From positions 10,964-74,963 of the forward strand of contig JALVVK010000001.1 of assembly GCA_027023445.1 (NCBI GenBank): a stretch of 64,000 nucleotides of DNA. The letters are read 5' to 3'. The notes under the pieces were generated by a model. That model did not search any database, was not told the DNA's origin, and saw only the letters and a program-made list of their open reading frames with translations. Positions 2,104 to 62,054 of the stretch are shown in pieces. How positions within the stretch are numbered: the first letter of the stretch is position 1; each line of letters opens with the position of its first letter. The translations under genes and the position numbers were made by a program. Origin of the DNA: Deltaproteobacteria bacterium. Lineage in GTDB: Bacteria; Desulfobacterota; Dissulfuribacteria; Dissulfuribacterales; JALVPX01.

Positions 2104-2739
2104 GTACGCCCAGCATGGGCATAGACTTATGAGGTTAAAGTCCTCTATACGTGGATCCCGCTACCTGATTGCGAGGATAGCGAAAGTATTAGCCGAAGGC
2201 AAGGGCGTCGCCGCAAGGCGGGGCCTGAAGGAAGCCGGAGTGCAAAACTGTGAGCCGACGAACAGAAACGTCATATAAGGCCGAGTCTCCGGGTAAGGCA
2301 GCACAACATGTCAAGGCCCTGGATTCAGGAGATTTTGCTTTTAACCTTGAGCTGTTTTCCCGGTAATCTCATTATATGACAGGGAAAATACAGGATGTCT
2401 CCTTTCACGTCCCCTTTCATACATGGAATCCTTGATGATCAAGACTCCGCATTTTCTAACCATTTGTCAAGAATAAAGATTCGACCCTCTTTCCACAGGC
2501 GGACAGCGATACTTACGGCTCTCAGCCGCAAGGGGTACTGGCATCTTGCCCGCACCCTTGCCACTCAAACTGGAATGACCAATAAATGGCTTGCCAGGCA
2601 GGGACTGGTTTCCATAAGGGAAAGGTGGGTCAGGATTCACTACCCGGCTACGGCCCGGTGATCTTCGTGAACCGCCCTGTGCGGACCCGCATGCAGGGTG
2701 GTGTGGGGAGGGGGAGAGAAAAACTCCCCCTTACCCGAT
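2104..2739 (+). mobile_element. group II intron derivative, RT-deleted, 636 nt (copy b)
   Basis: It starts GTACGCCC and ends CCCGAT. Domain V-like hairpin: ccgccctg-tgcg-gacc-cgca-(tg bulge)-cagggtgg. Domain VI-like hairpin has a bulged A (ggggaggggga...ctcccccttAcccgat). About 97 percent identical to copy c apart from a 162-nt deletion. Confidence 0.75.
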
Positions 2740-3343: not shown

Positions 3344-4141
3344 GTACGCCCAGCATGGGCATAGACTTATGAGGTTAAAGTCCTCTATACGTGGATCCCG
3401 CTACCTGATTTCGAGGATAGCGAAAGTATTAGCCGAAGGCAAGGGCGTCGCCGTAAGGCGGGGTCTGAAGGAAGCCGGAGTGCAAAACTGTGAGCCGACG
3501 AACAGAAACGTCATATAAGGCCGAGTCTCTGGGTAAGGCAGCACATCATGTCAACGCCCTGGATTCAGGAGATTTTGCTTTTAACCTTGAGTTGTTTTCC
3601 CGGTAAACTCATTATATGACAGGGAAAATACAGGATGTCTCCTTTCACGTCCCCTTTCATACATGGAATTCTTGATGATCAAGACTCCGCATTTTCTAAC
3701 TATTTGTCAAGAATAAAGATTCGACCCTCTTTCCACAGGTATGTCCGTGGCTGGATGAACTACTACGGCATATCTGAATACTACAGGCCCATACCCGCGC
3801 TGGACGAATGGCTCAGGAGGCGGACAAGGATGTGTTACTGGAAACAGTGGCGCAAGACCCGCACCAAGGTCAGGAACCTGATAAGACTCGGGACATACAG
3901 GCGGACAGCGATACTTACGGCTCTCAGCCGCAAGGGGTACTGGCATCTTGCCCGCACCCTTGCCACTCAAACAGGAATGACCAATAAATGGCTTGCCAGG
4001 CAGGGACTGGTTTCCATAAGGGAAAGGTGGATCAGGATTCACTACCCGGCTACGGCCCGGTAATCTTCGTGAACCGCCCTGTGCGGACCCGCATGCAGGG
4101 TGGTGTGGGGGCTGGGGGAGAAAAACCCCCGGCTACCCGAT
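3344..4141 (+). mobile_element. group II intron derivative, RT-deleted, 798 nt (copy c)
   Basis: Same 5' end (GTACGCCCAGCATGGGC) and the same domain V/VI tail as copy b. It retains a maturase (domain X) ORF fragment. It lies antisense to the flanking cassette ORFs. Confidence 0.75.
3635..4063 (+). pseudogene. remnant of a group II intron-encoded protein (maturase/X domain only; RT domain deleted)
   Basis: 142 aa containing YVRGWMNYYGISEYYRP...WKQWRKTRTKVRNLIRLG...GYWHLARTLATQTGMTNKWLARQGLVSI, typical of the X/maturase region and C-terminus of intron RTs. No RT motifs (no YADD-type block) are present. Confidence 0.7.
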
Positions 4142-19988: not shown

Positions 19989-22073
19989 ATGATCAAGCAT
20001 AAATCAACATGGGAAAAGTCAATGCCGGGGAAAATCTGTTTCTGGATGTTTATTCTTGTTCTCTCAGTTATGCCTTCCATGGCATATTCCCAGCAGGATG
20101 CGCCTCCTGCCACAGAGAACCGGAACGCTGCCATCCCGCAGGTGCAGACATCTCCCTTTGAAAATGCCGCGCCCGGTGAGAAAAAACCCATAGAAATCAC
20201 CCTGGACAACATGGATATCTATCCTGTGTTGGATTATATCCTGGGCGGTATCCTGGGGCTCAACTATGTGGTGGATCCGGCGATCAAGGGCACGATCTCG
20301 GTCAAAATCCGGGGAGAATATTCCAGGGCCGAGCTTTTGAATCTGTTGAACTCCATACTCCAGATCCATGGTATAGCCCTGACCAGAAATTCCCAGGGCC
20401 TTTACATGGTGGTGCGCAAGGCAAACAGCGGCAAGGTAGGGGCATCCGATGTTATTCCTCCGGGGCACAGGCCCATGGCCCCTGGAGACGTGGTCCAGGT
20501 CTTTCAGCTTCATTATCTTTCGGCCATACATGCCGCTGCGAATCTCAGGAATTTTGTGTCTCCCGGAGCCACGCTTGTTCCTGTTACCAGCCTCAACTCC
20601 CTTATCCTGGTGGATACGGCGGACAATGTCAAAAAGGTGGGGAAAATCCTCTCCCTCATGGACACCAACCTGTTCAAGGATATTTACTGGCGTGTTTACA
20701 GCCTGGAGTATACGGATGTTGAGGACATGGCTCGTGATCTCAACAAGATATTCGGCAGTGGAGGCCTGTATATGCGCCAGGGCATGGACAGGAAGGGCCT
20801 GCAGATCCTGCCTTTGAAAACCATCAACTCCCTCCTTGTGGTGACCCGGTGGAACGAACTGCTGAAGCTCGTGGATAAGTGGATCAGGGAACTGGATCAA
20901 GGCCAGTCGGATAAGGGCACCAGGGTCTATGTCTATTTTGTGCAGAACGGAAAGGCCTCTGAACTGGCAGACCTTCTGAAGCAGTTGTATACGGGTAAGG
21001 CTGCCTCTGAAAAGGGTCACAAAAAGGTGTTGGTGGAAAAAGTAAAGGAGGCAAGACCTGCCCAGTCTGCCGCAGGTGAACTGAGTGAAAAAGTTGAGAT
21101 AATCCCGGACGAGGCAAACAACGCCCTTCTCATCAAGGCGTCCCCAAAAGATTATAGAATTATAAAGAACGTCCTGGCCAAGATAGATGTGGTTCCAAGG
21201 CAGGTGCTGATTGATGTGTTGATTGCAGAAGTTACCCTGGATAAAACCTTTCAATACGGTGTCGAATGGTTTCTAAAAAGCCATAGCGGGGCATATTCCT
21301 CAGATATAGTGTTGACCGATACTAACATTCAAAAGACCTTATCGGAGAATACCCCGCTTGGCACGGGTCTGGGAGGATTTTCATACACCCTCTATTCAGC
21401 CGGAGACCTTCGAAACTTGATTACCATGCTGGCTTCAAAGACAAAGGTTAACATCCTTTCCGCACCAAATATCCTGGCAGTAGATAACAAGGAGTCCAAG
21501 ATTGAAGTGACACAGGACGTGCCTATTGCGACCAGTTCAACTACCAGCACTACTGAAAGCACCCTTACGCAGTCTATTCAGTATCGTAATGCCGGTGTCA
21601 TTCTTAATGTAACCCCTTCCATCAACGAAAGTGGACTGGTCAGTATGAAGGTGACGCAGGAGGTCAGTGAGCCCACGGAGAAGTTGGTAGAAGTAGGTGG
21701 AAAGGACAATAAATATCCGAGTTTTACGACCCGTAAGGCCACAACCAATCTGGTGGTACAAGATGGTCATACCATAGCAATCGGGGGGCTGATGAAAAAC
21801 GTAAAAAAGAAGGATCGCTCTGGTATCCCCATACTAAAGGATCTGCCGATTTTAGGCCATCTATTTGGCTGGCGAAGTTACAGCAACACCAAGACGGAAC
21901 TGCTTATAACCATAACCCCTCACGTGATAAAATCCATGAAACAGGCCGACGCTCTTACCAGAGAATTCTCCCAGAGGGTGAAAGCCGTGCAGGAAATGCT
22001 GAAAAAGAACCAGGATATTGCCAAGAGGCCCGGATTCTACAAAAAAGACAATAAGAAGGGTATGAATGAGTAA
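19989..22073 (+). CDS. gspD: type II secretion secretin GspD
   Basis: 694 aa; signal peptide, N0/N1-type repeats, and the C-terminal secretin core (NILSAPNILAVDNKES...VQDGHTIAIGGL...GIPILKDLPILGHLFG). Confidence 0.9.
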   Translation: MIKHKSTWEKSMPGKICFWMFILVLSVMPSMAYSQQDAPPATENRNAAIPQVQTSPFENAAPGEKKPIEITLDNMDIYPVLDYILGGILGLNYVVDPAIKGTISVKIRGEYSRAELLNLLNSILQIHGIALTRNSQGLYMVVRKANSGKVGASDVIPPGHRPMAPGDVVQVFQLHYLSAIHAAANLRNFVSPGATLVPVTSLNSLILVDTADNVKKVGKILSLMDTNLFKDIYWRVYSLEYTDVEDMARDLNKIFGSGGLYMRQGMDRKGLQILPLKTINSLLVVTRWNELLKLVDKWIRELDQGQSDKGTRVYVYFVQNGKASELADLLKQLYTGKAASEKGHKKVLVEKVKEARPAQSAAGELSEKVEIIPDEANNALLIKASPKDYRIIKNVLAKIDVVPRQVLIDVLIAEVTLDKTFQYGVEWFLKSHSGAYSSDIVLTDTNIQKTLSENTPLGTGLGGFSYTLYSAGDLRNLITMLASKTKVNILSAPNILAVDNKESKIEVTQDVPIATSSTTSTTESTLTQSIQYRNAGVILNVTPSINESGLVSMKVTQEVSEPTEKLVEVGGKDNKYPSFTTRKATTNLVVQDGHTIAIGGLMKNVKKKDRSGIPILKDLPILGHLFGWRSYSNTKTELLITITPHVIKSMKQADALTREFSQRVKAVQEMLKKNQDIAKRPGFYKKDNKKGMNE

Positions 22074-22076
22074 GTA

Positions 22077-22754
22077 ATGGCCTTTATTGCAGGTTACATC
22101 AGAAAGTTGAATCATCTGTCTTGTAAGGCCGTATGTGTGGTGCCCCTGACCTTTATGCTCTGTGCCGTCCAAGCCGTAATCGCGGCCGAGGGAACCAGGG
22201 GACAGGGCCAGTATGATATCATCATAAAACAAGACCCTTTTAATCCGGACCGGGGTTCCGGGGGCGAGACGGCAGGTGGCGGTTTTACGTCTGACAAAGG
22301 TCTTGGGGAACATTACCAAATTTATGGTATTATAACCGTTGGAGGAAAGAAAAGGGCCTTTGTAAAGGTGAGACCCTCTTCTGGAGTCGTTTTCAAGAAA
22401 GCCGGAGGGGCTACCAGGCCATCAAACTTCAGGACCGTTTCCATAGGGGACCTGATAGATGGTTGGAAGGTGGCGGATATAACTCCCAGGGGAATAATAC
22501 TGGAATCTGGAAATGAACGGGTCTTCGTGGGGATTTTTGAATCCCCAAAGAGGGAGAGGCAGGCTGGCAGGCCGGTCAATGTCTCTTCGCCCTCAACACG
22601 GCCCGTGCCTGTATTTCCAAAACCTGGCCAGGGCCGGCCTGCACGTGGCGGAACCAGGAAGGTATTTTTCCCGCAGGGTTCCCGGTCCAGGATTTACAGG
22701 GGTAATGTAAACGCGACCGGCCTAAAACCTGTCGCACCTCACCGAGTAAAGTAG
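22077..22754 (+). CDS. T2SS-associated protein, GspC/PilP-like (tentative)
   Basis: 225 aa; N-terminal TM/signal segment and a short beta-rich segment (YQIYGIITVGGKKRAFVKV...IGDLIDGWKVADITPRGIILESGNERVFV) resembling the secretin-interacting HR domain of GspC/PilP, followed by a Pro/Arg-rich tail. Confidence 0.4.
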   Translation: MAFIAGYIRKLNHLSCKAVCVVPLTFMLCAVQAVIAAEGTRGQGQYDIIIKQDPFNPDRGSGGETAGGGFTSDKGLGEHYQIYGIITVGGKKRAFVKVRPSSGVVFKKAGGATRPSNFRTVSIGDLIDGWKVADITPRGIILESGNERVFVGIFESPKRERQAGRPVNVSSPSTRPVPVFPKPGQGRPARGGTRKVFFPQGSRSRIYRGNVNATGLKPVAPHRVK

Positions 22755-22913
22755 ATATTCCAGTCGCTCATCAAGCTGATCCGCATATTCCGCTATGGAA
22801 TAGACCTTGCCGCAACCCTTACACCTAAGGGTTACACTCCTTCAGGTCCTGCATATTTCAAGCGGGCTGTCGCAGAGTCGGCATTTGAGATTGCTTTCTC
22901 CGGAGGATTTCAT
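22722..22913 (-). CDS. small Cys-rich selenoprotein candidate (63 aa, in-frame UGA at codon 24)
   Basis: My own translation of the minus strand: MKSSGESNLKCRLCDSPLEICRT-U-RSVTLRCKGCGKVYSIAEYADQLDERLEYLLYSVRCDRF*. The ATG overlaps the fabD stop (ATGA). The TGA at 22842-22844 sits in a C-x-x-U motif, with CRLC and CKGC pairs on either side. A SECIS-like hairpin follows. The ORF is absent from the track because of the TGA. Confidence 0.55.
22812..22835 (-). promoter_or_regulatory. SECIS-like stem-loop downstream of the in-frame UGA
   Basis: The mRNA reads UGA-AGGAGU-GUAACCCUU-AGGUGU-AAGGGUUGC. This is a 9-bp stem (one G-U pair) and a 6-nt apical loop containing GGU. The loop starts 18 nt after the U of UGA. 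Confidence 0.5.
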
Positions 22914-23842
22914 TTTTTGATCTCCCGCACGCATAATTCAAGGCCTTCAGGATCCTCGACCTGATATGTTTTTACCGGCCGGTCAACCGATTTTTTTATA
23001 AGATTTGTAAGCACCTTCTTTGGGCCCAATTCCACAAAGTTTTCCACTCCTGTCTGGGAAAGGGCTGAGATTATCTCATACCAGCGGACCGGGTTACACA
23101 TCTGGTCTTTCATAAGCGACCTGATCCTGTCAGGATCGGTTTCCGCCCGGGCGCTTACATTGCTGAACATAGGGACGTCGGGCCGTCTGAAGTCCGCCTG
23201 GTCCAGCGCCCTGGCAAATTCCTCTGATGGCTCTTTCATGAGGGGGCTGTGATAGGCTCCTGCTACCTTTAACGGAATGGCCCTGCCACCTTCCTCTTTT
23301 ACAAGGGCGCAGGCACGGTCAATAAGGGGTTTCTCTCCGGTAATTACGATCTGTTCAGGTGAGTTGTGGTTGGCAAGGCTGATAATTCCATCCGCCTTAA
23401 GCGGTTTTATGAGGCCCTCAAGCCTGTCACGGGCAAGGCCGATCACCGCGGCCATCGCCCCGCTGCCTGTCCCGCCGGCCTGCTCCATCAATCTGCCTCG
23501 CAGGTGCACCAGCCTGAAGGTATCCTCCAGGGAAAGTGCCCCACAGGCCCAAAGGGCCGGATATTCACCAAGGCTGTGACCTGCCACGGCATCGGGTTTC
23601 AGGCCTTTTTCCATGGCGGCCGAGCCGCAAATTATATCCATTGCGGTCAGACACGGCTGCAGATTCGCGGTCTTTGTAAGTTCCCCCATGGGCCCTTCCG
23701 TTATAAGCTTCTCAAGAGGGATGCCCGTGACCTCGGCACCTGTTTTCAAAATTTCCCTTGCCTTGGGCAGGGATTCGATAAATGCCTTTCCCATTCCCAC
23801 GTATTGGGAACCCTGGCCTGGAAACACAAAGGCGGTCTTCAT
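22910..23842 (-). CDS. fabD: malonyl-CoA:ACP transacylase
   Basis: 310 aa; FVFPGQGSQYVGMG, active-site GHSLGEY, and the overall FabD pattern. Confidence 0.9.
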   Translation of the reverse strand: MKTAFVFPGQGSQYVGMGKAFIESLPKAREILKTGAEVTGIPLEKLITEGPMGELTKTANLQPCLTAMDIICGSAAMEKGLKPDAVAGHSLGEYPALWACGALSLEDTFRLVHLRGRLMEQAGGTGSGAMAAVIGLARDRLEGLIKPLKADGIISLANHNSPEQIVITGEKPLIDRACALVKEEGGRAIPLKVAGAYHSPLMKEPSEEFARALDQADFRRPDVPMFSNVSARAETDPDRIRSLMKDQMCNPVRWYEIISALSQTGVENFVELGPKKVLTNLIKKSVDRPVKTYQVEDPEGLELCVREIKK

Positions 23843-52200: not shown

Positions 52201-54117
52201 TCAAGGCTTGTATATAGTTCTTTTCGGCACAAACTGTCCTGTTTTTCCGCGGTTATACAGTTCCTCAAGGAGCCTTGCCGTTGTCCTGTCCATTGATCCC
52301 GACTCCATTGCCTTGGCGGCCAGGTGTCTGCCTGTCTCCTCATCCCCTTCTTCCTGCCAGTAACCATGGGCCAGCAGAGCAAGAGCCTTATGATCAGAGG
52401 GATTAAGGCGAAGCGCCCTTTCAAGATATGCCTTTGCCCTGGGCCAGTCTCCCGTCTGGCGGAATGCGCGGGCAAGGATTCTCAGGGGAGCGCCAATGCC
52501 GGCCTCCCCGGTATCTGCAAGCAGGGGGACAAGAAGGTTTATAACCTCCTGCGGACGTCCGGACCTGAAAAGAAACTGGGACAGGCGCGTGGCTATGGTC
52601 AGATTGCCCGGACACAGATCCATTGCCCTCTGGAGCGCGTCCAGCGCCTCGGAATTCCTGCCGGACTCCTCGTATACACCGGCAAGATTGTAAAGGGCCA
52701 TGTAGTGGTCCGCCTTAAGCTCCACGGCCTTTATAAAGGCCTGCTCGGCCTCTTTCTTCCTGCCTGTCTGACCGAGACACACTCCCAGGCTGTTCCAGAG
52801 GTTGGCGTCTTTCCGGTCTATCCTGAGCCCCTTTCGATAGGCGTCCATGGCCCCGGCAATATCTCCCCATGCCATGTACTCGTCTCCGGTAACGTTCCAG
52901 CTCAGGGCGTCAAAGGCAACATGGGAGCCCTGGCCGAGAAGGCTTGCGTGGATGTAGGCCCACAGGCTGGCCCTTACTGATTTCGTTCCCCTGGTCGTGG
53001 GTTCGGCAGAAGAAGCCGCTCCCATGGTCAACAGGGCGTCTCCCTCCGCGGGGAACATTGAACATACCGTCTGGATGGCTTCATCCGGCCGCCCTGTTCC
53101 CTCCAGAACGAAAAAGGCGGAGTCTTTTCCCGCCTGAAAGATATGTACGGTCTGAAGGCCGTTGCCAGTATCGTGACTGGCAGGATGCACCGGTCTGGCA
53201 AACACTACGCTCTTGCGCACTGATCCATGTCTCCGTACCGCCTGGCTGACCTGCTCCAGGATTTCACACAGGCAGTCGATCCCCAGGCGTTTCTCAAATT
53301 TCTGGAGCTCCGGCGTGCCCATGACGTTGATTCCAAGGTCTGCCGCCGCCTTTTCCAGGCACCTGATGCGGTTTAAAGCCTGTTGTGAGCCGGTACCCCG
53401 GGGCAGTACGTGCATATACGCCCTGAGGAGCCCTGTTTTTTTCTTCCTTGCCAGGCGGGCTATCCTCTTTAATCCCTCGAAGGCATGATCGCCATTGCCT
53501 GGGGATATCCCGATCCATAGTTCGGACGCACCCATACCCATAAGATGCGGGACGCGGCCAGGAAACGCCTTTGCGCAAATTTCAAGAACCACGGGCAGAA
53601 CGTGATCCAGGGAATGGGATCGTCTGAATAAAAGGTGCAGCAGGGCCGCAGGCTCCATGGTATCTGACAGGCGATCAAGCCACTGCAAAAGGTAGCGTGG
53701 GTGCCTGCCCGCTTCCGGGGCTATCGTCTGGTTTTTAAGAAGTAAAAGGCCCTGATCGGCCACGGCCTTGAGAAGGGGCAGCACGCGCTGTGATTCCTCC
53801 GGCCCCACCACCCTGCTTATCCCGGACAGGACAAGTGTGCCCGGAGAAGCTGAGCTGGCACCGTCAAGGGGAATCAGCACCTGGCTGGAAACCCTGTCCC
53901 AGAAAGGCCTGCCGTTACTGAGCGCCTCCCGGGCCCTTGGTCTCTGACGCTCCGAGAGCCTTACCGGGGGAAGTCCGTCTTCATGCGCATGCGCGGGGAA
54001 GATCGCGCCCGAGGAAAACGAGAAGACTTCCTGCAGTTTCTGTATCAAAAGAGGGCCAAGGATCTCCAGGTCCCTTGCAAGGAGAGATTTTTGCGGGTTT
54101 AAAATCCTGCCGCTCAT
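52201..54117 (-). CDS. TPR-repeat protein with an uncharacterised N-terminal ~400-aa region
   Basis: 638 aa; the C-terminal ~230 aa hold six or seven TPR units (AMDAYRKGLRIDRKDANLWNSLGVCLGQTGRKKEAEQAFIKAVELKADHYMALYNLAGVY...). The start overlaps the selA stop (ATGA). Confidence 0.65.
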   Translation of the reverse strand: MSGRILNPQKSLLARDLEILGPLLIQKLQEVFSFSSGAIFPAHAHEDGLPPVRLSERQRPRAREALSNGRPFWDRVSSQVLIPLDGASSASPGTLVLSGISRVVGPEESQRVLPLLKAVADQGLLLLKNQTIAPEAGRHPRYLLQWLDRLSDTMEPAALLHLLFRRSHSLDHVLPVVLEICAKAFPGRVPHLMGMGASELWIGISPGNGDHAFEGLKRIARLARKKKTGLLRAYMHVLPRGTGSQQALNRIRCLEKAAADLGINVMGTPELQKFEKRLGIDCLCEILEQVSQAVRRHGSVRKSVVFARPVHPASHDTGNGLQTVHIFQAGKDSAFFVLEGTGRPDEAIQTVCSMFPAEGDALLTMGAASSAEPTTRGTKSVRASLWAYIHASLLGQGSHVAFDALSWNVTGDEYMAWGDIAGAMDAYRKGLRIDRKDANLWNSLGVCLGQTGRKKEAEQAFIKAVELKADHYMALYNLAGVYEESGRNSEALDALQRAMDLCPGNLTIATRLSQFLFRSGRPQEVINLLVPLLADTGEAGIGAPLRILARAFRQTGDWPRAKAYLERALRLNPSDHKALALLAHGYWQEEGDEETGRHLAAKAMESGSMDRTTARLLEELYNRGKTGQFVPKRTIYKP

Positions 54118-55520
54118 GGCCAGATCCTGGAAAAAGCGCTGGTTATGATATCTTTTTCCTCTTCCCTTACCGTTCTCATGTCCATAAGAATGGCATTATC
54201 CTCCATCCTTGTTATCACCGGGGGGTCATGTGCCCTGAGCCCGGCCTCGATCTTCGAGATGGATATTTTTTTGGGGTCAGTGACCCGGACGCGCACAGCC
54301 CTGGATCTCAGCTCCTGAAGGGGCAAGGCTCCGCCTCCCACCCTTGAGACGGTATCCGCGGTGTCGATGGAGGCCCCGTTAAGCCCGAGTCCGTCCAGCA
54401 GTTGCCTCAGGGACTCGGCCCTTTCTTTCAGTGCGGCATAGGGCATTGTGAGCATTTTGAGCACGGGAAGCTGCTTGACCGCATTTTCAGGCTCCCTGTA
54501 AAACCTGAGCACCTGCTCCAGGGCGGCCAGTGTCAACTTGTCTATGCGGACCGCGCGGTTCAGCGGATTGGTCTTGATTTTATCGATATATTTCCTTTTT
54601 CCCAGGATTATCCCCGCCTGGGGGCCTCCGAGAAGCTTATCTCCGCTGAAGCTTACGATATCCGCGCCGGCTTCAAGCGCCTCCTGCACCGTAGGCTCGT
54701 GAAGCATGCCGAACCTGGTAAAGTCCACAAAATTTCCGCTGCCAAGATCTTCAAAGACCGGTATGCCGTGTTTTGCCCCGAGTTTTGCCAGCTCTCTGAC
54801 GGAAACAGATCTGGTGAACCCCACGATCTGGAAATTGCTCTGGTGTACCTTCATCAGGAGAGCGGTCTGATCCCCGATTGCCCCGGCATAGTCCCTGAGA
54901 TGGGTGCGGTTGGTGGCCCCAACCTCCCGAAGCAGGGCGCCGCTTCTGGCCATCACGTCCGGAATCCGGAAAGATCCACCGATTTCAACCAGCTCTCCAC
55001 GGGAGACGACGACCTCCCTGTCCCTGGCGAGGGTCTCAAGGGTGATCAGTACGGCGGCCGCGTTGTTGTTGACCACAAGTGCCGCCTCGGCGCCCGTGAG
55101 TTCACGGAGCAGGTCTTCCACATGGCTGTACCTGCTTCCCCTTTCGCCTTTTTCGAGGTTATATTCCAGATTACAGTATCCCTTTGCCACCCGCGCGATA
55201 ACATCCAGCACAGGTTCTGGGAGGGGCGAGCGGCCCAGATTCGTATGGACCACGACCCCCGTGGCATTGATAACCGGCTTGAGTGAAGGGGAAAGAAGCC
55301 CGGCTGCCCGGCTGCTGAGTTCGGCCTCGATATTTTCCCGGCTCAGCAGGTCATGGCAGGGTTCATCGGATGAGAGTATCCTTTTACGCAGGGCGTCCAC
55401 TGTGAGCCGGGCTGCCCGCAGCCTGACCGACCAGGGCATGTCCGCGGGCAGGGCCTCTGCAAGCAGATCAATCTTGGGCAGATTTTTCAGTAATTTCCGC
55501 TGGATATCGGAGTAGGTCAT
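54114..55520 (-). CDS. selA: L-seryl-tRNA(Sec) selenium transferase
   Basis: 468 aa; VINATGVVVHTNLGRS, FSGDKLLGGPQAG (PLP lysine), and a SelA-length and N-terminal tRNA-binding region. Confidence 0.9.
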   Translation of the reverse strand: MTYSDIQRKLLKNLPKIDLLAEALPADMPWSVRLRAARLTVDALRKRILSSDEPCHDLLSRENIEAELSSRAAGLLSPSLKPVINATGVVVHTNLGRSPLPEPVLDVIARVAKGYCNLEYNLEKGERGSRYSHVEDLLRELTGAEAALVVNNNAAAVLITLETLARDREVVVSRGELVEIGGSFRIPDVMARSGALLREVGATNRTHLRDYAGAIGDQTALLMKVHQSNFQIVGFTRSVSVRELAKLGAKHGIPVFEDLGSGNFVDFTRFGMLHEPTVQEALEAGADIVSFSGDKLLGGPQAGIILGKRKYIDKIKTNPLNRAVRIDKLTLAALEQVLRFYREPENAVKQLPVLKMLTMPYAALKERAESLRQLLDGLGLNGASIDTADTVSRVGGGALPLQELRSRAVRVRVTDPKKISISKIEAGLRAHDPPVITRMEDNAILMDMRTVREEEKDIITSAFSRIWP

Positions 55521-56325: not shown

Positions 56326-57339
56326 TCAAATCTTTATTCTTGATGATTGAATCAGCCGACAGCGTAAATTATTAAATTTTTTTTTCAGCTCAGGTTCATG
56401 TCCCAGCCTGATTCGCAACCTTTTCCTGGCCTGGCTGACTGAACTGTAATCTATTCCCCCAACCAGCCGCCCAATTTCAGCTTGGGTAAGCTGACAGAGG
56501 CGGTATAGCAATTCCATCAGCATCGCTCTTTCCACGAGATTTTTGCCGCGTCTACATATTTCCTCTCTGCCTATCCCGGTCAAATGGGTGAAATGATCGA
56601 TCAGATCTTCCGGGTCAGGCGTTTTCTCCAATTTTCTCAAGGCAGGCTGCTCCCTTTTGGAGGCCTTCTCGCCTAAGAATTTCTCTCTGATCCCCTGCAC
56701 AAAGTCAGCACTGCCTACAATCCCGGAGCCCTTACCCAAGCCCAATGGATTCTCTATCTTCTGCTCAATGCCCTGTAGTATAAACTTGCGATAGCCCAGC
56801 CTTCCCTTTCGGGTATCCCCGCCCATATATTCCAGGACAGTCGTATAATTTACAAAGTCTGTTCTTTTGCCAGCATGGAGATACCCTGGTAAACTGCTGT
56901 TTTTATATTTTAAGAGCATATCCAGTTTTTCCTTAACGGTGTTGTCGGGCGATCCCTTGATTCGGATCGGGTTGAGGTGGATATAACGGGACACCTCCAG
57001 AAGATAATTATCAGAATCAATCAGAAAGGCTTTGTATCTTCCCTGATAAAGGTGCCCGACACGGTTGTGTCTGTGATTGAAGGCAGATGTGTAGGAGATG
57101 TTGAAGTGGCGCATGAACTCAGAAAGATTGCCTTCAGGAGTGGTTACCAGCAGATGAAAGTGGTTTGGCATGCAGACATGCGCCAAAAGGGAGACGTTAT
57201 AGATATCCAGGGAAAGAGAAAGCCTGTCCGTAAAAATTTTGTAGTCTTTTTTGTCCAGGAAGATATTTTTACGCCCGTTTCCACGGCAGGTAACGTGATA
57301 GCAGGCACCAGGATACTGGATTCTCAAGGGTCTGGCCAT
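56326..57339 (-). mobile_element. IS200-like / REP-associated Y1 (HUH) transposase with a C-terminal DnaA-C-like HTH domain
   Basis: ARPLRIQYPGACYHVTCRGNGRKNIF...NHFHLLV (HUH)...GHLYQGRYKAFL (catalytic Tyr region), and C-terminal ERAMLMELLYRLCQLTQAEIGRLVGGIDYSSVSQARKRL. I saw no clear terminal inverted repeats. Confidence 0.7.
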
Positions 57340-57474
57340 GCCTAATAATCGACAAGAGTCGATCATTTGTCAAGAAAAAAGATTTGACCCCCAAGAGCAG
57401 GATTCTTGACATAAGTAAGAGTTGGTGCGTACATTGCGGTACATTGTCCATAATTCATGCAAAAGGGGACTTTC

Positions 57475-61517: not shown

Positions 61518-61619
61518 GATAGCCAGGCACCCCCGCGGCACACGAAGGGCCCTACTGCCGTTGCTTCCTTCCGGACCTGGCGGGGTTCGCAGGGTTTCGT
61601 TGCGCAGGACCCGGCTATC
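61518..61619 (-). ncRNA. ffs: signal recognition particle RNA (small/4.5S type)
   Basis: The minus strand reads ...ccgCCAGGUCCGGAAGGAAGCAacggcag...gugugccgcggg..., which is the conserved domain IV motif. The ends pair (gatagccgggtcctgcg / cgcgggggtgcctggctatc). It is located just upstream of dnaX, as in many bacteria. Confidence 0.85.
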
Positions 61620-61642
61620 AAAAGGAAATAATTATCATTGAA

Positions 61643-61735
<93 letters not shown>

Positions 61736-61960
61736 GCAGACTGCGCATAGATTATCCGATTCCCTTGAATATGCAACAGGGAAATGTAAACGGAAACGAA
61801 AGTTACAGGTCCTTGCCCTCTTTGGTTCACCCAAACTCTCATGTAAGTGGTGCTTCACACCCCTGAGCATGAAAGTTGGCTCATAGGTGATAGCCGCAAT
61901 AAATCACCTTGTTTCTTAAGCCATAAGCCATGACCCATCACCCATGACCCATCACACCAT

Positions 61961-62030
<70 letters not shown>

Positions 62031-62054
<24 letters not shown>

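What the first reader, a model, noticed from the sequence alone, without database searches (positions are those of the whole stretch)
22722..22913. Unannotated small selenoprotein candidate: CxxU motif, SECIS-like hairpin, translationally coupled to fabD
A 63-codon minus-strand frame starts at an ATG that overlaps the fabD stop (ATGA) and contains one in-frame TGA (22842-22844). Reading through gives MKSSGESNLKCRLCDSPLEICRT-U-RSVTLRCKGCGKVYSIAEYADQLDERLEYLLYSVRCDRF. The TGA falls exactly where a redox CxxC would have its second Cys (C21-R-T-U24), flanked by CRLC and CKGC pairs (a zinc-ribbon-like 4-Cys set). Starting 7 nt after the UGA there is a 9-bp stem with a 6-nt AGGUGU loop, a geometry compatible with bacterial SECIS elements. 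selA is present in the same window, so the organism probably decodes UGA as Sec. The ORF is invisible to stop-to-stop ORF calling. Its last 33 nt overlap the convergent 3' end of the T2SS gene at 22077-22754.
Basis: partly seen in the sequence, partly recalled or inferred. Interest (0 to 1): 0.7.

Follow-up and report, generated by a model that had tools for sequence, protein, structure and literature searches.

The report
Known small selenoprotein gene behind fabD
The stop-codon-interrupted mini-gene after fabD is a genuine selenocysteine-containing protein, but it belongs to a family catalogued in 2007 (OS_HP3, NCBIfam NF041197) whose function is still untested, so it is a correct call and not a new discovery.

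Summary
A 63-codon minus-strand frame (22913..22722) starts at an ATG overlapping the fabD stop, carries one in-frame TGA (22844..22842) and ends at TAG.

With U written as C, the product matches NCBIfam NF041197, "dual CXXC motif small (seleno)protein", at 65.7 bits (cut-off 40). This is family OS_HP3 of Zhang & Gladyshev 2007.

A degenerate DNA pattern found 72 homologous loci, almost all Desulfobacterota/Thermodesulfobacteriota. 67 have TGA at this position and 5 Desulfovibrionaceae have TGC/TGT. An upstream CxxC that was not in the pattern is conserved 72/72, so the frame runs through the TGA.

The hairpin after the TGA (11 bp, GGUG loop, 16-nt spacing, -13.9 kcal/mol) meets all published bacterial SECIS criteria. 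Only 0.3% of window TGAs have an equally stable one. It shows compensatory changes across relatives and is absent from the Cys forms. selA is in the window.

A Cys-form model (pLDDT 86) is zinc-ribbon-like, with the Sec position in the beta2-beta3 turn. The function is unknown, and a redox role is inferred.

Verdict: real but already known; low interest.

The parts
22722..22913 (-). Coding sequence of the small selenoprotein (63 codons including Sec24; TAG stop at 22724-22722). Member of NCBIfam NF041197 / OS_HP3.
   Evidence: 65.7 bits against cut-off 40; profile 1-53/53 on aa 11-63; 72 homologous loci with the frame conserved on both sides of the TGA.
22842..22844 (-). Sec codon UGA (codon 24), inside the conserved R22-x-U24 motif.
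   Evidence: TGA in 67 of 72 loci and TGC/TGT in 5; the review lists motif RxU for NF041197.
22811..22836 (-). SECIS hairpin: 11-bp stem (UGUAACCCUUA / UAAGGGUUGCG) closing a GGUG loop at 22825-22822, with 16 nt between the UGA and the loop. It encodes V27-C34 and so overlaps the second CxxC.
   Evidence: passes all four bSECIS criteria; compensatory changes at 5 of 11 pairs across 24 relatives; the criteria.
22922..22925 (-). Shine-Dalgarno-like GGAG, 8 nt upstream of the ATG at 22913, lying inside the fabD 3' end.
   Evidence: Read directly.
22932..22934 (-). Alternative upstream in-frame ATG (would add MRAGDQK). It is conserved in L045 but is less consistent with family N-terminal lengths.
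   Evidence: 30-aa ORF 22842..22934; alignment with L045; relatives L001, L024, L026 have M plus 9 residues before the first Cys, as with a start at 22913.
22910..23842 (-). fabD (ACP S-malonyltransferase). Its stop overlaps the small gene's start (ATGA).
   Evidence: TIGR00128, 299 bits; same arrangement, fabD stop about -8 to +45 nt from the likely start, in 17 other loci.
54117..55520 (-). selA, L-seryl-tRNA(Sec) selenium transferase. It shows that the organism has Sec biosynthesis.
   Evidence: TIGR00474, 588 bits against cut-off 268.
22077..22754 (+). Convergent 225-aa ORF downstream of gspD. Its last 33 nt overlap the selenoprotein gene's 3' end. No family assignment.
   Evidence: no NCBIfam hit; gspD at 19989-22070 is TIGR02517, 436 bits; 31-33% identical homologues after gspD in L001, L013, L051.

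Best explanation
Window 22913..22722(-) is a functional gene for a 63-residue selenoprotein of the family 'dual CXXC motif small (seleno)protein' (NCBIfam NF041197, originally OS_HP3).

Shown here: the UGA at codon 24 lies in one conserved reading frame. It is followed at the canonical distance by a bacterial SECIS hairpin that covaries among relatives and is missing where the codon is Cys. The organism encodes SelA.

Inferred: SelB with Sec-tRNA(Sec) binds the GGUG-loop hairpin, which is itself the coding sequence of the second CxxC, and inserts Sec. The gene is co-transcribed with gcvH-fabD and probably translationally coupled to fabD through the ATGA overlap.

Proposed mechanism of the protein (inferred, about 35% confidence): C11/C14 and C31/C34 form a structural four-Cys metal site of a zinc-ribbon fold. 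This scaffold displays Sec24 on the exposed beta2-beta3 turn, flanked by the invariant Arg22. There Sec24 acts as a redox-active or chalcogen/metal-handling selenol that cycles through a selenenylsulfide with a nearby Cys: C60 in the C-terminal tail in most members, C21 in the window's clade, and both in the window.
For: Family membership: (65.7 bits, cut-off 40, full profile). Literature: OS_HP3 described in 2007; motif RxU; a known member in Desulfosarcina widdelii.

Reading frame: 72 loci were found with a pattern expected about once by chance. C11 and C14, which were not in the pattern, are 72/72 conserved upstream of the TGA. 67 loci have TGA and 5 have TGC/TGT. Database entries are mostly fragments that start just after the TGA, or TGA=Trp mistranslations.

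SECIS: (all four criteria met; 0.3% of background TGAs are as good). 53 of 68 Sec forms pass against 0 of 5 Cys forms. Compensatory changes, some synonymous on both sides, appear.

Sec machinery: selA.

Fold: AlphaFold2 model of Cys form P0009, pLDDT 86.3, with four strands and two helices. The CxxC motifs lie in the beta1/beta2 and beta3/beta4 loops, and the Sec-equivalent Cys lies in the beta2-beta3 turn. The weak top structural and sequence hits are all zinc ribbons.

Extra Cys: 65 of 67 Sec forms have C21 and/or C60.
Against: There is no experimental evidence for Sec insertion, metal binding or redox activity in any family member.

selB, selC and selD are not in the window.

The model is of a 40%-identical Cys form and not of the window protein. 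No structural match is significant (best E = 0.26).

The C21/C60 complementarity rests on about one or two evolutionary events, so the Fisher p-value is inflated.

No functional partner is conserved next to the gene across clades.

15 of 68 Sec forms fail my strict no-bulge SECIS implementation.
Confidence: 0.92

Rival explanations
1. Sec24 is itself a metal ligand (for example of a five-coordinate or alternative Cys3Sec site) and not a free redox selenol. The protein would then be a small metal-binding or metal-trafficking selenoprotein.
For: Five invariant Cys/Sec positions. The weak profile match to the second zinc ribbon of YfgJ (2jrp, E = 0.013) aligns a Cys to the Sec position with identical CxxC-x9-C-x6-C spacing. 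Pfam Zn_ribbon_6 is the best, though sub-threshold, Pfam hit. Sec acts as a metal ligand in other selenoproteins such as [NiFeSe] hydrogenase (abstract of PMC13582414).
Against: The AlphaFold2 model puts the Sec-equivalent Cys in the beta2-beta3 turn, separated from each CxxC knuckle by a whole strand. The YfgJ and Pfam matches are not significant. A classical CxxC...CxxC ribbon already supplies four ligands.
Confidence: 0.25
2. The TGA is a true stop (or a pseudogene lesion or sequencing error). Only a 23-residue peptide is made, and the downstream conservation has another cause.
For: Stop-to-stop ORF calling ends at the TGA. Public databases hold only fragments for most members.
Against: TGA is at the same codon in 67 independent genomes and Cys in 5 others. 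Both halves are conserved as protein, including an upstream CxxC outside the search pattern. There is no start codon for the downstream half in the window. A covarying SECIS is present only in TGA forms. The match is to a curated selenoprotein HMM.
Confidence: 0.02
3. The protein is a dedicated accessory of the gcvH-fabD (lipoyl carrier / malonyl-ACP) genes with which it is packed in this clade.
For: murA-moaA-gcvH-fabD-selenoprotein order, same strand, in 17 other loci. The fabD stop lies -8 to +45 nt from the small gene's likely start, and the window has an ATGA overlap.
Against: The closest relative, L045, has the gene (about 90% DNA identity over about 240 nt) behind a sensor kinase, with unrelated flanks. 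Another clade of 18 loci has argJ, an AEC transporter and truA around it, and the Desulfovibrionales have pcnB/uvrC. All of these neighbours are housekeeping genes.
Confidence: 0.08

Closest known systems
NCBIfam NF041197 'dual CXXC motif small (seleno)protein' = hypothetical protein OS_HP3 (Zhang & Gladyshev 2007, PMC1976440; review PMC13188914)
   Same: Full-length HMM match above the curated cut-off, two CxxC motifs, Sec in an R-x-U motif, about 60 residues, SECIS directly after the UGA, and deltaproteobacterial (Desulfobacterota) distribution.
   Different: Nothing defining differs. The window member additionally has C21, which gives a local CxxU, and sits directly behind fabD. In 2007 no Cys homologues were known; here Cys forms are seen in Desulfovibrionaceae.
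Classical four-Cys zinc ribbons (e.g. RNA polymerase subunits RPB12 and RPA12/RPC10, primase and TopoI ribbons, ZifS)
   Same: Two CxxC knuckles 16 residues apart, and a predicted four-stranded beta fold with the knuckles in the beta1/beta2 and beta3/beta4 loops. These ribbons are the top, though weak, sequence and structure hits.
   Different: No significant match to any of them (best E = 0.007 by sequence and 0.26 by structure). This protein has an invariant Sec/Cys in the beta2-beta3 turn and a C-terminal two-helix extension ending in a conserved C-D-R.
YfgJ / Pfam PF07191 Zn_ribbon_6 (double zinc ribbon)
   Same: The second YfgJ ribbon has CxxC-x9-C-x6-C, the same spacing as C11-C14-U24-C31. 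It is also the best Pfam hit.
   Different: 16.4 bits against a gathering score of 25, and E = 0.013 against PDB, so neither is significant. YfgJ has two ribbons and no Sec.
Thioredoxin-fold CxxU/UxxC selenoproteins (Sec-containing Trx, Grx and similar)
   Same: The window protein has a local C21-x-x-U24, and a redox role is plausible.
   Different: The fold is not thioredoxin-like. C21 is absent from two thirds of the family and from the closest relative.
E. coli fdhF-type bacterial SECIS (bSECIS consensus model)
   Same: A hairpin within the coding sequence, G at the first loop position followed by G/U, 16-37 nt from the UGA, and MFE at or below -7.5 kcal/mol.
   Different: The spacing is at the lower limit (16 nt). 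Within this one family two registers about 6-7 nt apart are used: a GGUG loop at +19, or an (A)GGUC loop at +25/26.

Membership tests
NCBIfam NF041197 / OS_HP3 dual CXXC motif small (seleno)protein | Score above the curated HMM cut-off over the whole profile | tested here: met
   65.7 bits against 40; profile 1-53/53 aligned to residues 11-63 (U entered as C).
NCBIfam NF041197 / OS_HP3 dual CXXC motif small (seleno)protein | Two CxxC motifs flanking the Sec/Cys position | tested here: met
   C11-R-L-C14 and C31-K-G-C34. Both motifs are 72/72 conserved in relatives, and the first was not part of the search pattern.
NCBIfam NF041197 / OS_HP3 dual CXXC motif small (seleno)protein | Sec (or Cys) in the R-x-U motif | tested here: met
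   R22-T23-U24. The motif is given as RxU in PMC13188914. 67 relatives have TGA and 5 have Cys codons.
NCBIfam NF041197 / OS_HP3 dual CXXC motif small (seleno)protein | Actual incorporation of selenium into the product | not testable with these tools
   Needs 75Se labelling or mass spectrometry. No such data were found for any member.
Bacterial SECIS element (bSECIS consensus, PMC13188914 Fig. 2) | Apical loop of 3-9 nt on an upper stem of 4-16 bp | tested here: met
   GGUG loop (4 nt) and 11-bp stem.
Bacterial SECIS element (bSECIS consensus, PMC13188914 Fig. 2) | G in one of the first two loop positions, usually followed by G or U | tested here: met
   The loop starts with GG and then U. Columns 26-29 (GGTG) are invariant across the 24 class-A relatives.
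Bacterial SECIS element (bSECIS consensus, PMC13188914 Fig. 2) | 16-37 nt between the UGA and the apical loop; MFE at or below -7.5 kcal/mol | tested here: met
   16 nt and -13.9 kcal/mol.
Bacterial SECIS element (bSECIS consensus, PMC13188914 Fig. 2) | Binding by SelB | not testable with these tools
   selB is not in the window, and a binding assay is needed.
Sec-decoding trait of the host (selA, selB, selC, selD) | All four genes are present in the genome | tested here: inconclusive
   selA is present. No tRNA-Sec and no selB or selD were recognised in the 64-kb window, and the rest of the genome was not available.
Zinc ribbon fold | Two Cys knuckles on a beta-hairpin scaffold that bind one metal ion | tested here: inconclusive
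   The sequence pattern and the AlphaFold2 topology of a Cys form fit. The matches to solved ribbons are not significant, and metal binding is untested.
Pfam PF07191 Zn_ribbon_6 (YfgJ) | Score above the Pfam gathering threshold | tested here: not met
   16.4 bits against 25.
CxxU/UxxC thiol-selenol oxidoreductases of the thioredoxin fold | A conserved CxxU (or UxxC) motif in a thioredoxin fold | tested here: not met
   C21 occurs in only 24 of 72 distinct family sequences and is Arg in the closest relative. The predicted fold is a beta-ribbon plus two helices.

The most novel reading that the evidence does not exclude
The family is a distinct kind of selenoprotein: a zinc-ribbon scaffold that displays a lone Sec on a beta-turn, with an interchangeable resolving cysteine (C-terminal C60, or C21 three residues upstream). 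In the window's clade it has been recruited into the gcvH-fabD operon as a dedicated redox partner. Its SECIS has also moved between two registers inside the same coding motif.
Probability: 0.12. Interest if true: 0.5.

Novelty: already known. Interest (0 to 1): 0.22.

Why it matters
For annotation, this is a real gene that ordinary ORF callers miss or truncate. Most public database entries for the family are 32-38-residue fragments or TGA=Trp mistranslations, and a recent deep-learning predictor missed a member. So a correct call here improves the selenoproteome count of this organism.

For biology, the family has been catalogued for nearly twenty years without any functional or experimental data. 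The observations made here give concrete handles for a first experiment:
- Cys forms are restricted to Desulfovibrionaceae.
- The Sec position lies on a predicted beta-turn of a zinc-ribbon-like fold.
- An extra Cys is nearly always present at position 21 or 60.
- Two SECIS registers occur within one family.

None of this changes current understanding of selenoproteins.

Tried and rejected
- The word-indexed protein search with the full U-to-C sequence found nothing.
I replaced it with a hand-made degenerate DNA pattern.
A natural Cys form at 40% identity was modelled instead.
- A search for other selenoprotein genes in the window gave only two weak candidates that overlap a long ORF on the other strand, which I rejected.
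- The promoter/terminator scan gave nothing above chance.
- Conserved-neighbour analysis gave no family-wide partner.
- The Fisher test on C21 against C60 was set aside as evidence after clustering showed it reflects about one or two events.
- P0001, a 330-residue repetitive protein, was dismissed as a spurious hit.

Full report
**1. Observation**

- The ATG at 22913-22911 shares three bases with the fabD stop TGA at 22912-22910.
- The in-frame TGA is at 22844-22842 and the TAG stop at 22724-22722.
- The read-through product is MKSSGESNLKCRLCDSPLEICRT-U-RSVTLRCKGCGKVYSIAEYADQLDERLEYLLYSVRCDRF.
- There is a 33-nt overlap with the convergent 225-codon ORF 22077-22754.
- A GGAG lies 8 nt upstream of the ATG.
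- A second in-frame ATG lies at 22934.
- Between the TGA and codon 58 there is no ATG, GTG or TTG, so the downstream half has no start of its own.
- fabD (TIGR00128, 299 bits), gcvH and selA (54117-55520, TIGR00474, 588 bits) are confirmed.
- ARAGORN and Rfam find no tRNA-Sec in the window.

**2. Identity**

With U entered as C, the protein matches NCBIfam NF041197.2, "CxxC_Se_CxxC, dual CXXC motif small (seleno)protein". The model is an equivalog. The score is 65.7 bits against a curated cut-off of 40, and the whole 53-position profile is covered. Pfam gives only sub-threshold zinc-ribbon hits.

[quoted passage not shown] That paper (PMC1976440) described OS_HP3 from two TGA-containing ORFs of the delta1 and delta4 symbionts of Olavius algarvensis. 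It showed a predicted SECIS and reported no Cys homologue. A 2025 paper mentions a member in Desulfosarcina widdelii that its predictor missed. No functional or experimental data turned up.

**3. Relatives**

The word-indexed protein search found nothing. An exhaustive HMMER search with the 39 residues after the TGA returned seven true hits. Nearly all are 36-38-residue fragments that begin just after the TGA position, as gene callers would produce.

I then wrote a degenerate DNA pattern from the invariant columns: R-x-[TGA/TGC/TGT]-x4-L-R-C-x2-C-x3-[YF]-x4-Y-x11-L-x5-D. It has zero chance matches in window shuffles, and by my own arithmetic about one is expected in the whole collection.

The pattern found 72 loci in one-genome-per-species contigs. 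All are labelled Desulfobacterota, Thermodesulfobacteriota or "Deltaproteobacteria", except one Hyphomicrobiales MAG bin (L063).

Translating each locus through the variable codon gives TGA in 67 and TGC/TGT in 5. The five are L007, L027, L035, L038 and L060, all Desulfovibrio, Desulfovibrionaceae or Oceanidesulfovibrio.

Upstream of the TGA, every locus continues in frame with C-x2-C-x6-(x)-R-x. These two cysteines were not in the pattern, yet they are conserved in 72 of 72 distinct sequences. This is the strongest single argument that the two halves form one protein.

A profile search then returned more entries:
- Full-length Cys forms of 66-75 residues (P0009-P0014, P0016).
- Two entries with W at the Sec position and W at the TGA stop, i.e. 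translated with a TGA=Trp code (P0015, P0018).
- 32-35-residue fragments, two of which NCBI itself names "dual CXXC motif small (seleno)protein".

**4. SECIS**

The published bacterial model requires four things (PMC13188914):
- a 3-9 nt apical loop on a 4-16 bp stem;
- a G in the first two loop positions;
- 16-37 nt between the UGA and the loop;
- MFE at or below -7.5 kcal/mol.

The window hairpin (22836-22811) has an 11-bp stem, a GGUG loop, 16-nt spacing and -13.9 kcal/mol, so it passes all four. The 61-nt region folds at -22.7 kcal/mol, z = -2.7. Of the 2215 TGA triplets on both strands of the window, 3.8% pass the criteria and 0.3% have a hairpin at least as stable.

Across the family, 53 of 68 Sec forms pass a strict no-bulge implementation, and none of the 5 Cys forms does. 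Mean fold energies differ as well (p = 0.014, with only 5 Cys forms).

Two registers exist.
- Class A, which includes the window, has the GGUG loop at +19 on the codons of L29-R30-C31.
- Class B has an (A)GGUC loop at +25/26 on C31-x-x.

On the ungapped class-A alignment, 5 of 11 pairs show changes on both sides (25 cells; 0 of 500 shuffles reach this, and slid controls give 0-3). Two examples:
- Leu29 CUU/CUG/CUC is paired with codon 32 AAG/CAG/GAG.
- Leu29 CUG-to-UUG is paired with Gln32 CAG-to-CAA, which is synonymous on both sides.

Class B shows weaker but similar support.

One caveat applies. Class members were selected for having at least 6 pairs in the register, so the percentage paired is inflated. 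The compensatory changes are not a direct product of that selection, but they are shared among related sequences.

**5.

- C21, which makes the "CxxU", occurs in 24 of 72 distinct sequences. It is confined to the window's wider clade plus L019. The closest relative, L045, has Arg there through a single base difference. The family motif is R22-x-U24.
- Placement directly behind fabD recurs in 17 other loci, with the order murA-moaA-gcvH-fabD-gene. The fabD stop lies -8 to +45 nt from the likely start. This is compatible with co-transcription and sometimes with translational coupling.
- L045, however, carries the gene at about 90% DNA identity over only about 240 nt, behind a sensor kinase and with unrelated flanks.
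- Another clade of 18 loci has a divergent argJ, an AEC-type transporter and truA around the gene. The Desulfovibrionales have pcnB and uvrC. There is no family-wide functional neighbour.
- The start codon is not fully settled. ATG 22934 is conserved in L045. However, L001, L024 and L026 have M plus 9 residues before the first Cys, as does a start at 22913.

**6. Protein architecture and likely mechanism**

An AlphaFold2 model of the Cys form P0009, built with a 14-row alignment, is confident: pLDDT 86.3 and pTM 0.71. It has strands 10-16, 23-28, 33-37 and 42-45, and helices 46-52 and 55-63.

On the P0009 sequence, the first CxxC (C17, C20) lies in the beta1/beta2 loop and the second (C37, C40) in the beta3/beta4 loop. 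This is the topology of a zinc ribbon. The Sec-equivalent C30 lies in the beta2-beta3 turn, and C66 (window C60) lies in the tail after the helices.

Foldseek against the PDB gives no significant match (best E = 0.26). The weak top hits are zinc-ribbon modules: T4 primase, the ATCase regulatory-chain Zn domain, RPA12/RPC10, TopoI and ZifS. A profile search of PDB sequences likewise gives only weak zinc-finger and ribbon hits.

Among Sec forms, 41 have C60 only, 19 have C21 only, 5 have both (including the window) and 2 have neither. Clustering shows that C60 is ancestral. C21 arose in one super-clade, and C60 was then lost inside it about once or twice. This hints at an interchangeable second redox residue but does not prove it.

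My preferred mechanism is a structural four-Cys metal site that presents a reactive selenol on an exposed turn. The selenol would cycle with C60 or C21 as a selenenylsulfide. I put this at roughly 35%.

The main mechanistic rival is Sec as a metal ligand. A non-significant alignment to the second ribbon of YfgJ, with identical CxxC-x9-C-x6-C spacing, prompts this idea. I put it at about 25%. The remainder is unknown.

**7. Comparison, novelty and verdict**

The gene passes every sequence-level membership test for NF041197/OS_HP3 and for the bSECIS model. It fails membership of Pfam Zn_ribbon_6 and of thioredoxin-fold CxxU proteins.

It is an ordinary member of a family that is already curated and that NCBI's annotation pipeline names. 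The finding is therefore correct but already known. Whether this particular copy is annotated in its source record could not be checked.

Residual interest lies in the family's complete lack of functional data and in the small additions made here: Cys forms in Desulfovibrionaceae, the predicted position of Sec on a beta-turn, the C21/C60 pattern, two SECIS registers, and relocation of the gene as a compact unit.

- Interest: 0.22.
- Confidence that this is a genuine Sec-encoding gene of this family: about 0.92.

Noticed in passing
window 22700-22945 (-) and L045 5848-6090 (+): The selenoprotein gene, with about 35 nt upstream and about 15 nt downstream, is about 90% identical at DNA level between the window and MAG contig JALTHV010000014.1. 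The flanks are unrelated: fabD and gspD-side genes in the window, a PhoR-like sensor kinase in L045. The gene seems to have relocated or transferred as a compact unit of about 240 nt.
   Followed up: partly
L001-L072 (SECIS regions, 60 nt from 6 nt before the TGA): One protein family uses two different SECIS registers inside the same conserved LRCxxC coding motif: a GGUG loop starting 19 nt after the U of UGA (24 sequences) and an (A)GGUC loop starting at 25-26 nt (30 sequences). Each register has compensatory changes.
   Followed up: yes
proteins P0002-P0008, P0015, P0017-P0023 (public databases): Most database entries for this family are mis-called. They are 32-38-residue fragments that start after the UGA (two of them named by NCBI as the family), or translations with TGA=Trp that also run through the TGA stop.
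   Followed up: yes
protein P0006 (66 aa, metagenomic): This is a Cys-form relative with R-T-C at the Sec position, but its first CxxC is degraded to C-K-S-R. It may be a decaying or functionally shifted member.
   Followed up: no
L063 6826-6945 (-), contig JBLMXM010000387.1: This is the only family member outside the Desulfobacterota labels. It sits in a Hyphomicrobiales MAG bin, but its sequence and neighbours (argJ, truA cluster) group with Desulfobacterales members. It is probably a mis-binned contig and not a transfer.
   Followed up: partly
window 2207-2739 (+) and 3447-4141 (+): Two Rfam group II intron signatures lie about 1.2 kb apart on the same strand: D1-D4-3 at 65.5 and 67.6 bits, each followed by an Intron_gpII domain V/VI hit at about 47 bits. 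This suggests two intron copies or a tandem arrangement.
   Followed up: no
window 61518-62054 (-): A bacterial small SRP RNA (78.8 bits) lies immediately next to two tRNA-Ser genes (GGA and CGA anticodons). No tRNA-Sec is in the window.
   Followed up: no
window 22077-22754 (+): A 225-residue ORF after gspD has no NCBIfam family, but it is conserved at 31-33% identity after gspD in L001, L013 and L051. Its last 11 codons are simply the antisense of the selenoprotein's conserved C-terminus.
   Followed up: partly
window 56329-57366 (-): A 346-residue ORF has an N-terminal match to REP-associated tyrosine transposase (NF047646) at 75.6 bits, just under the cut-off of 80. It lies about 800 bp from selA.
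   Followed up: no
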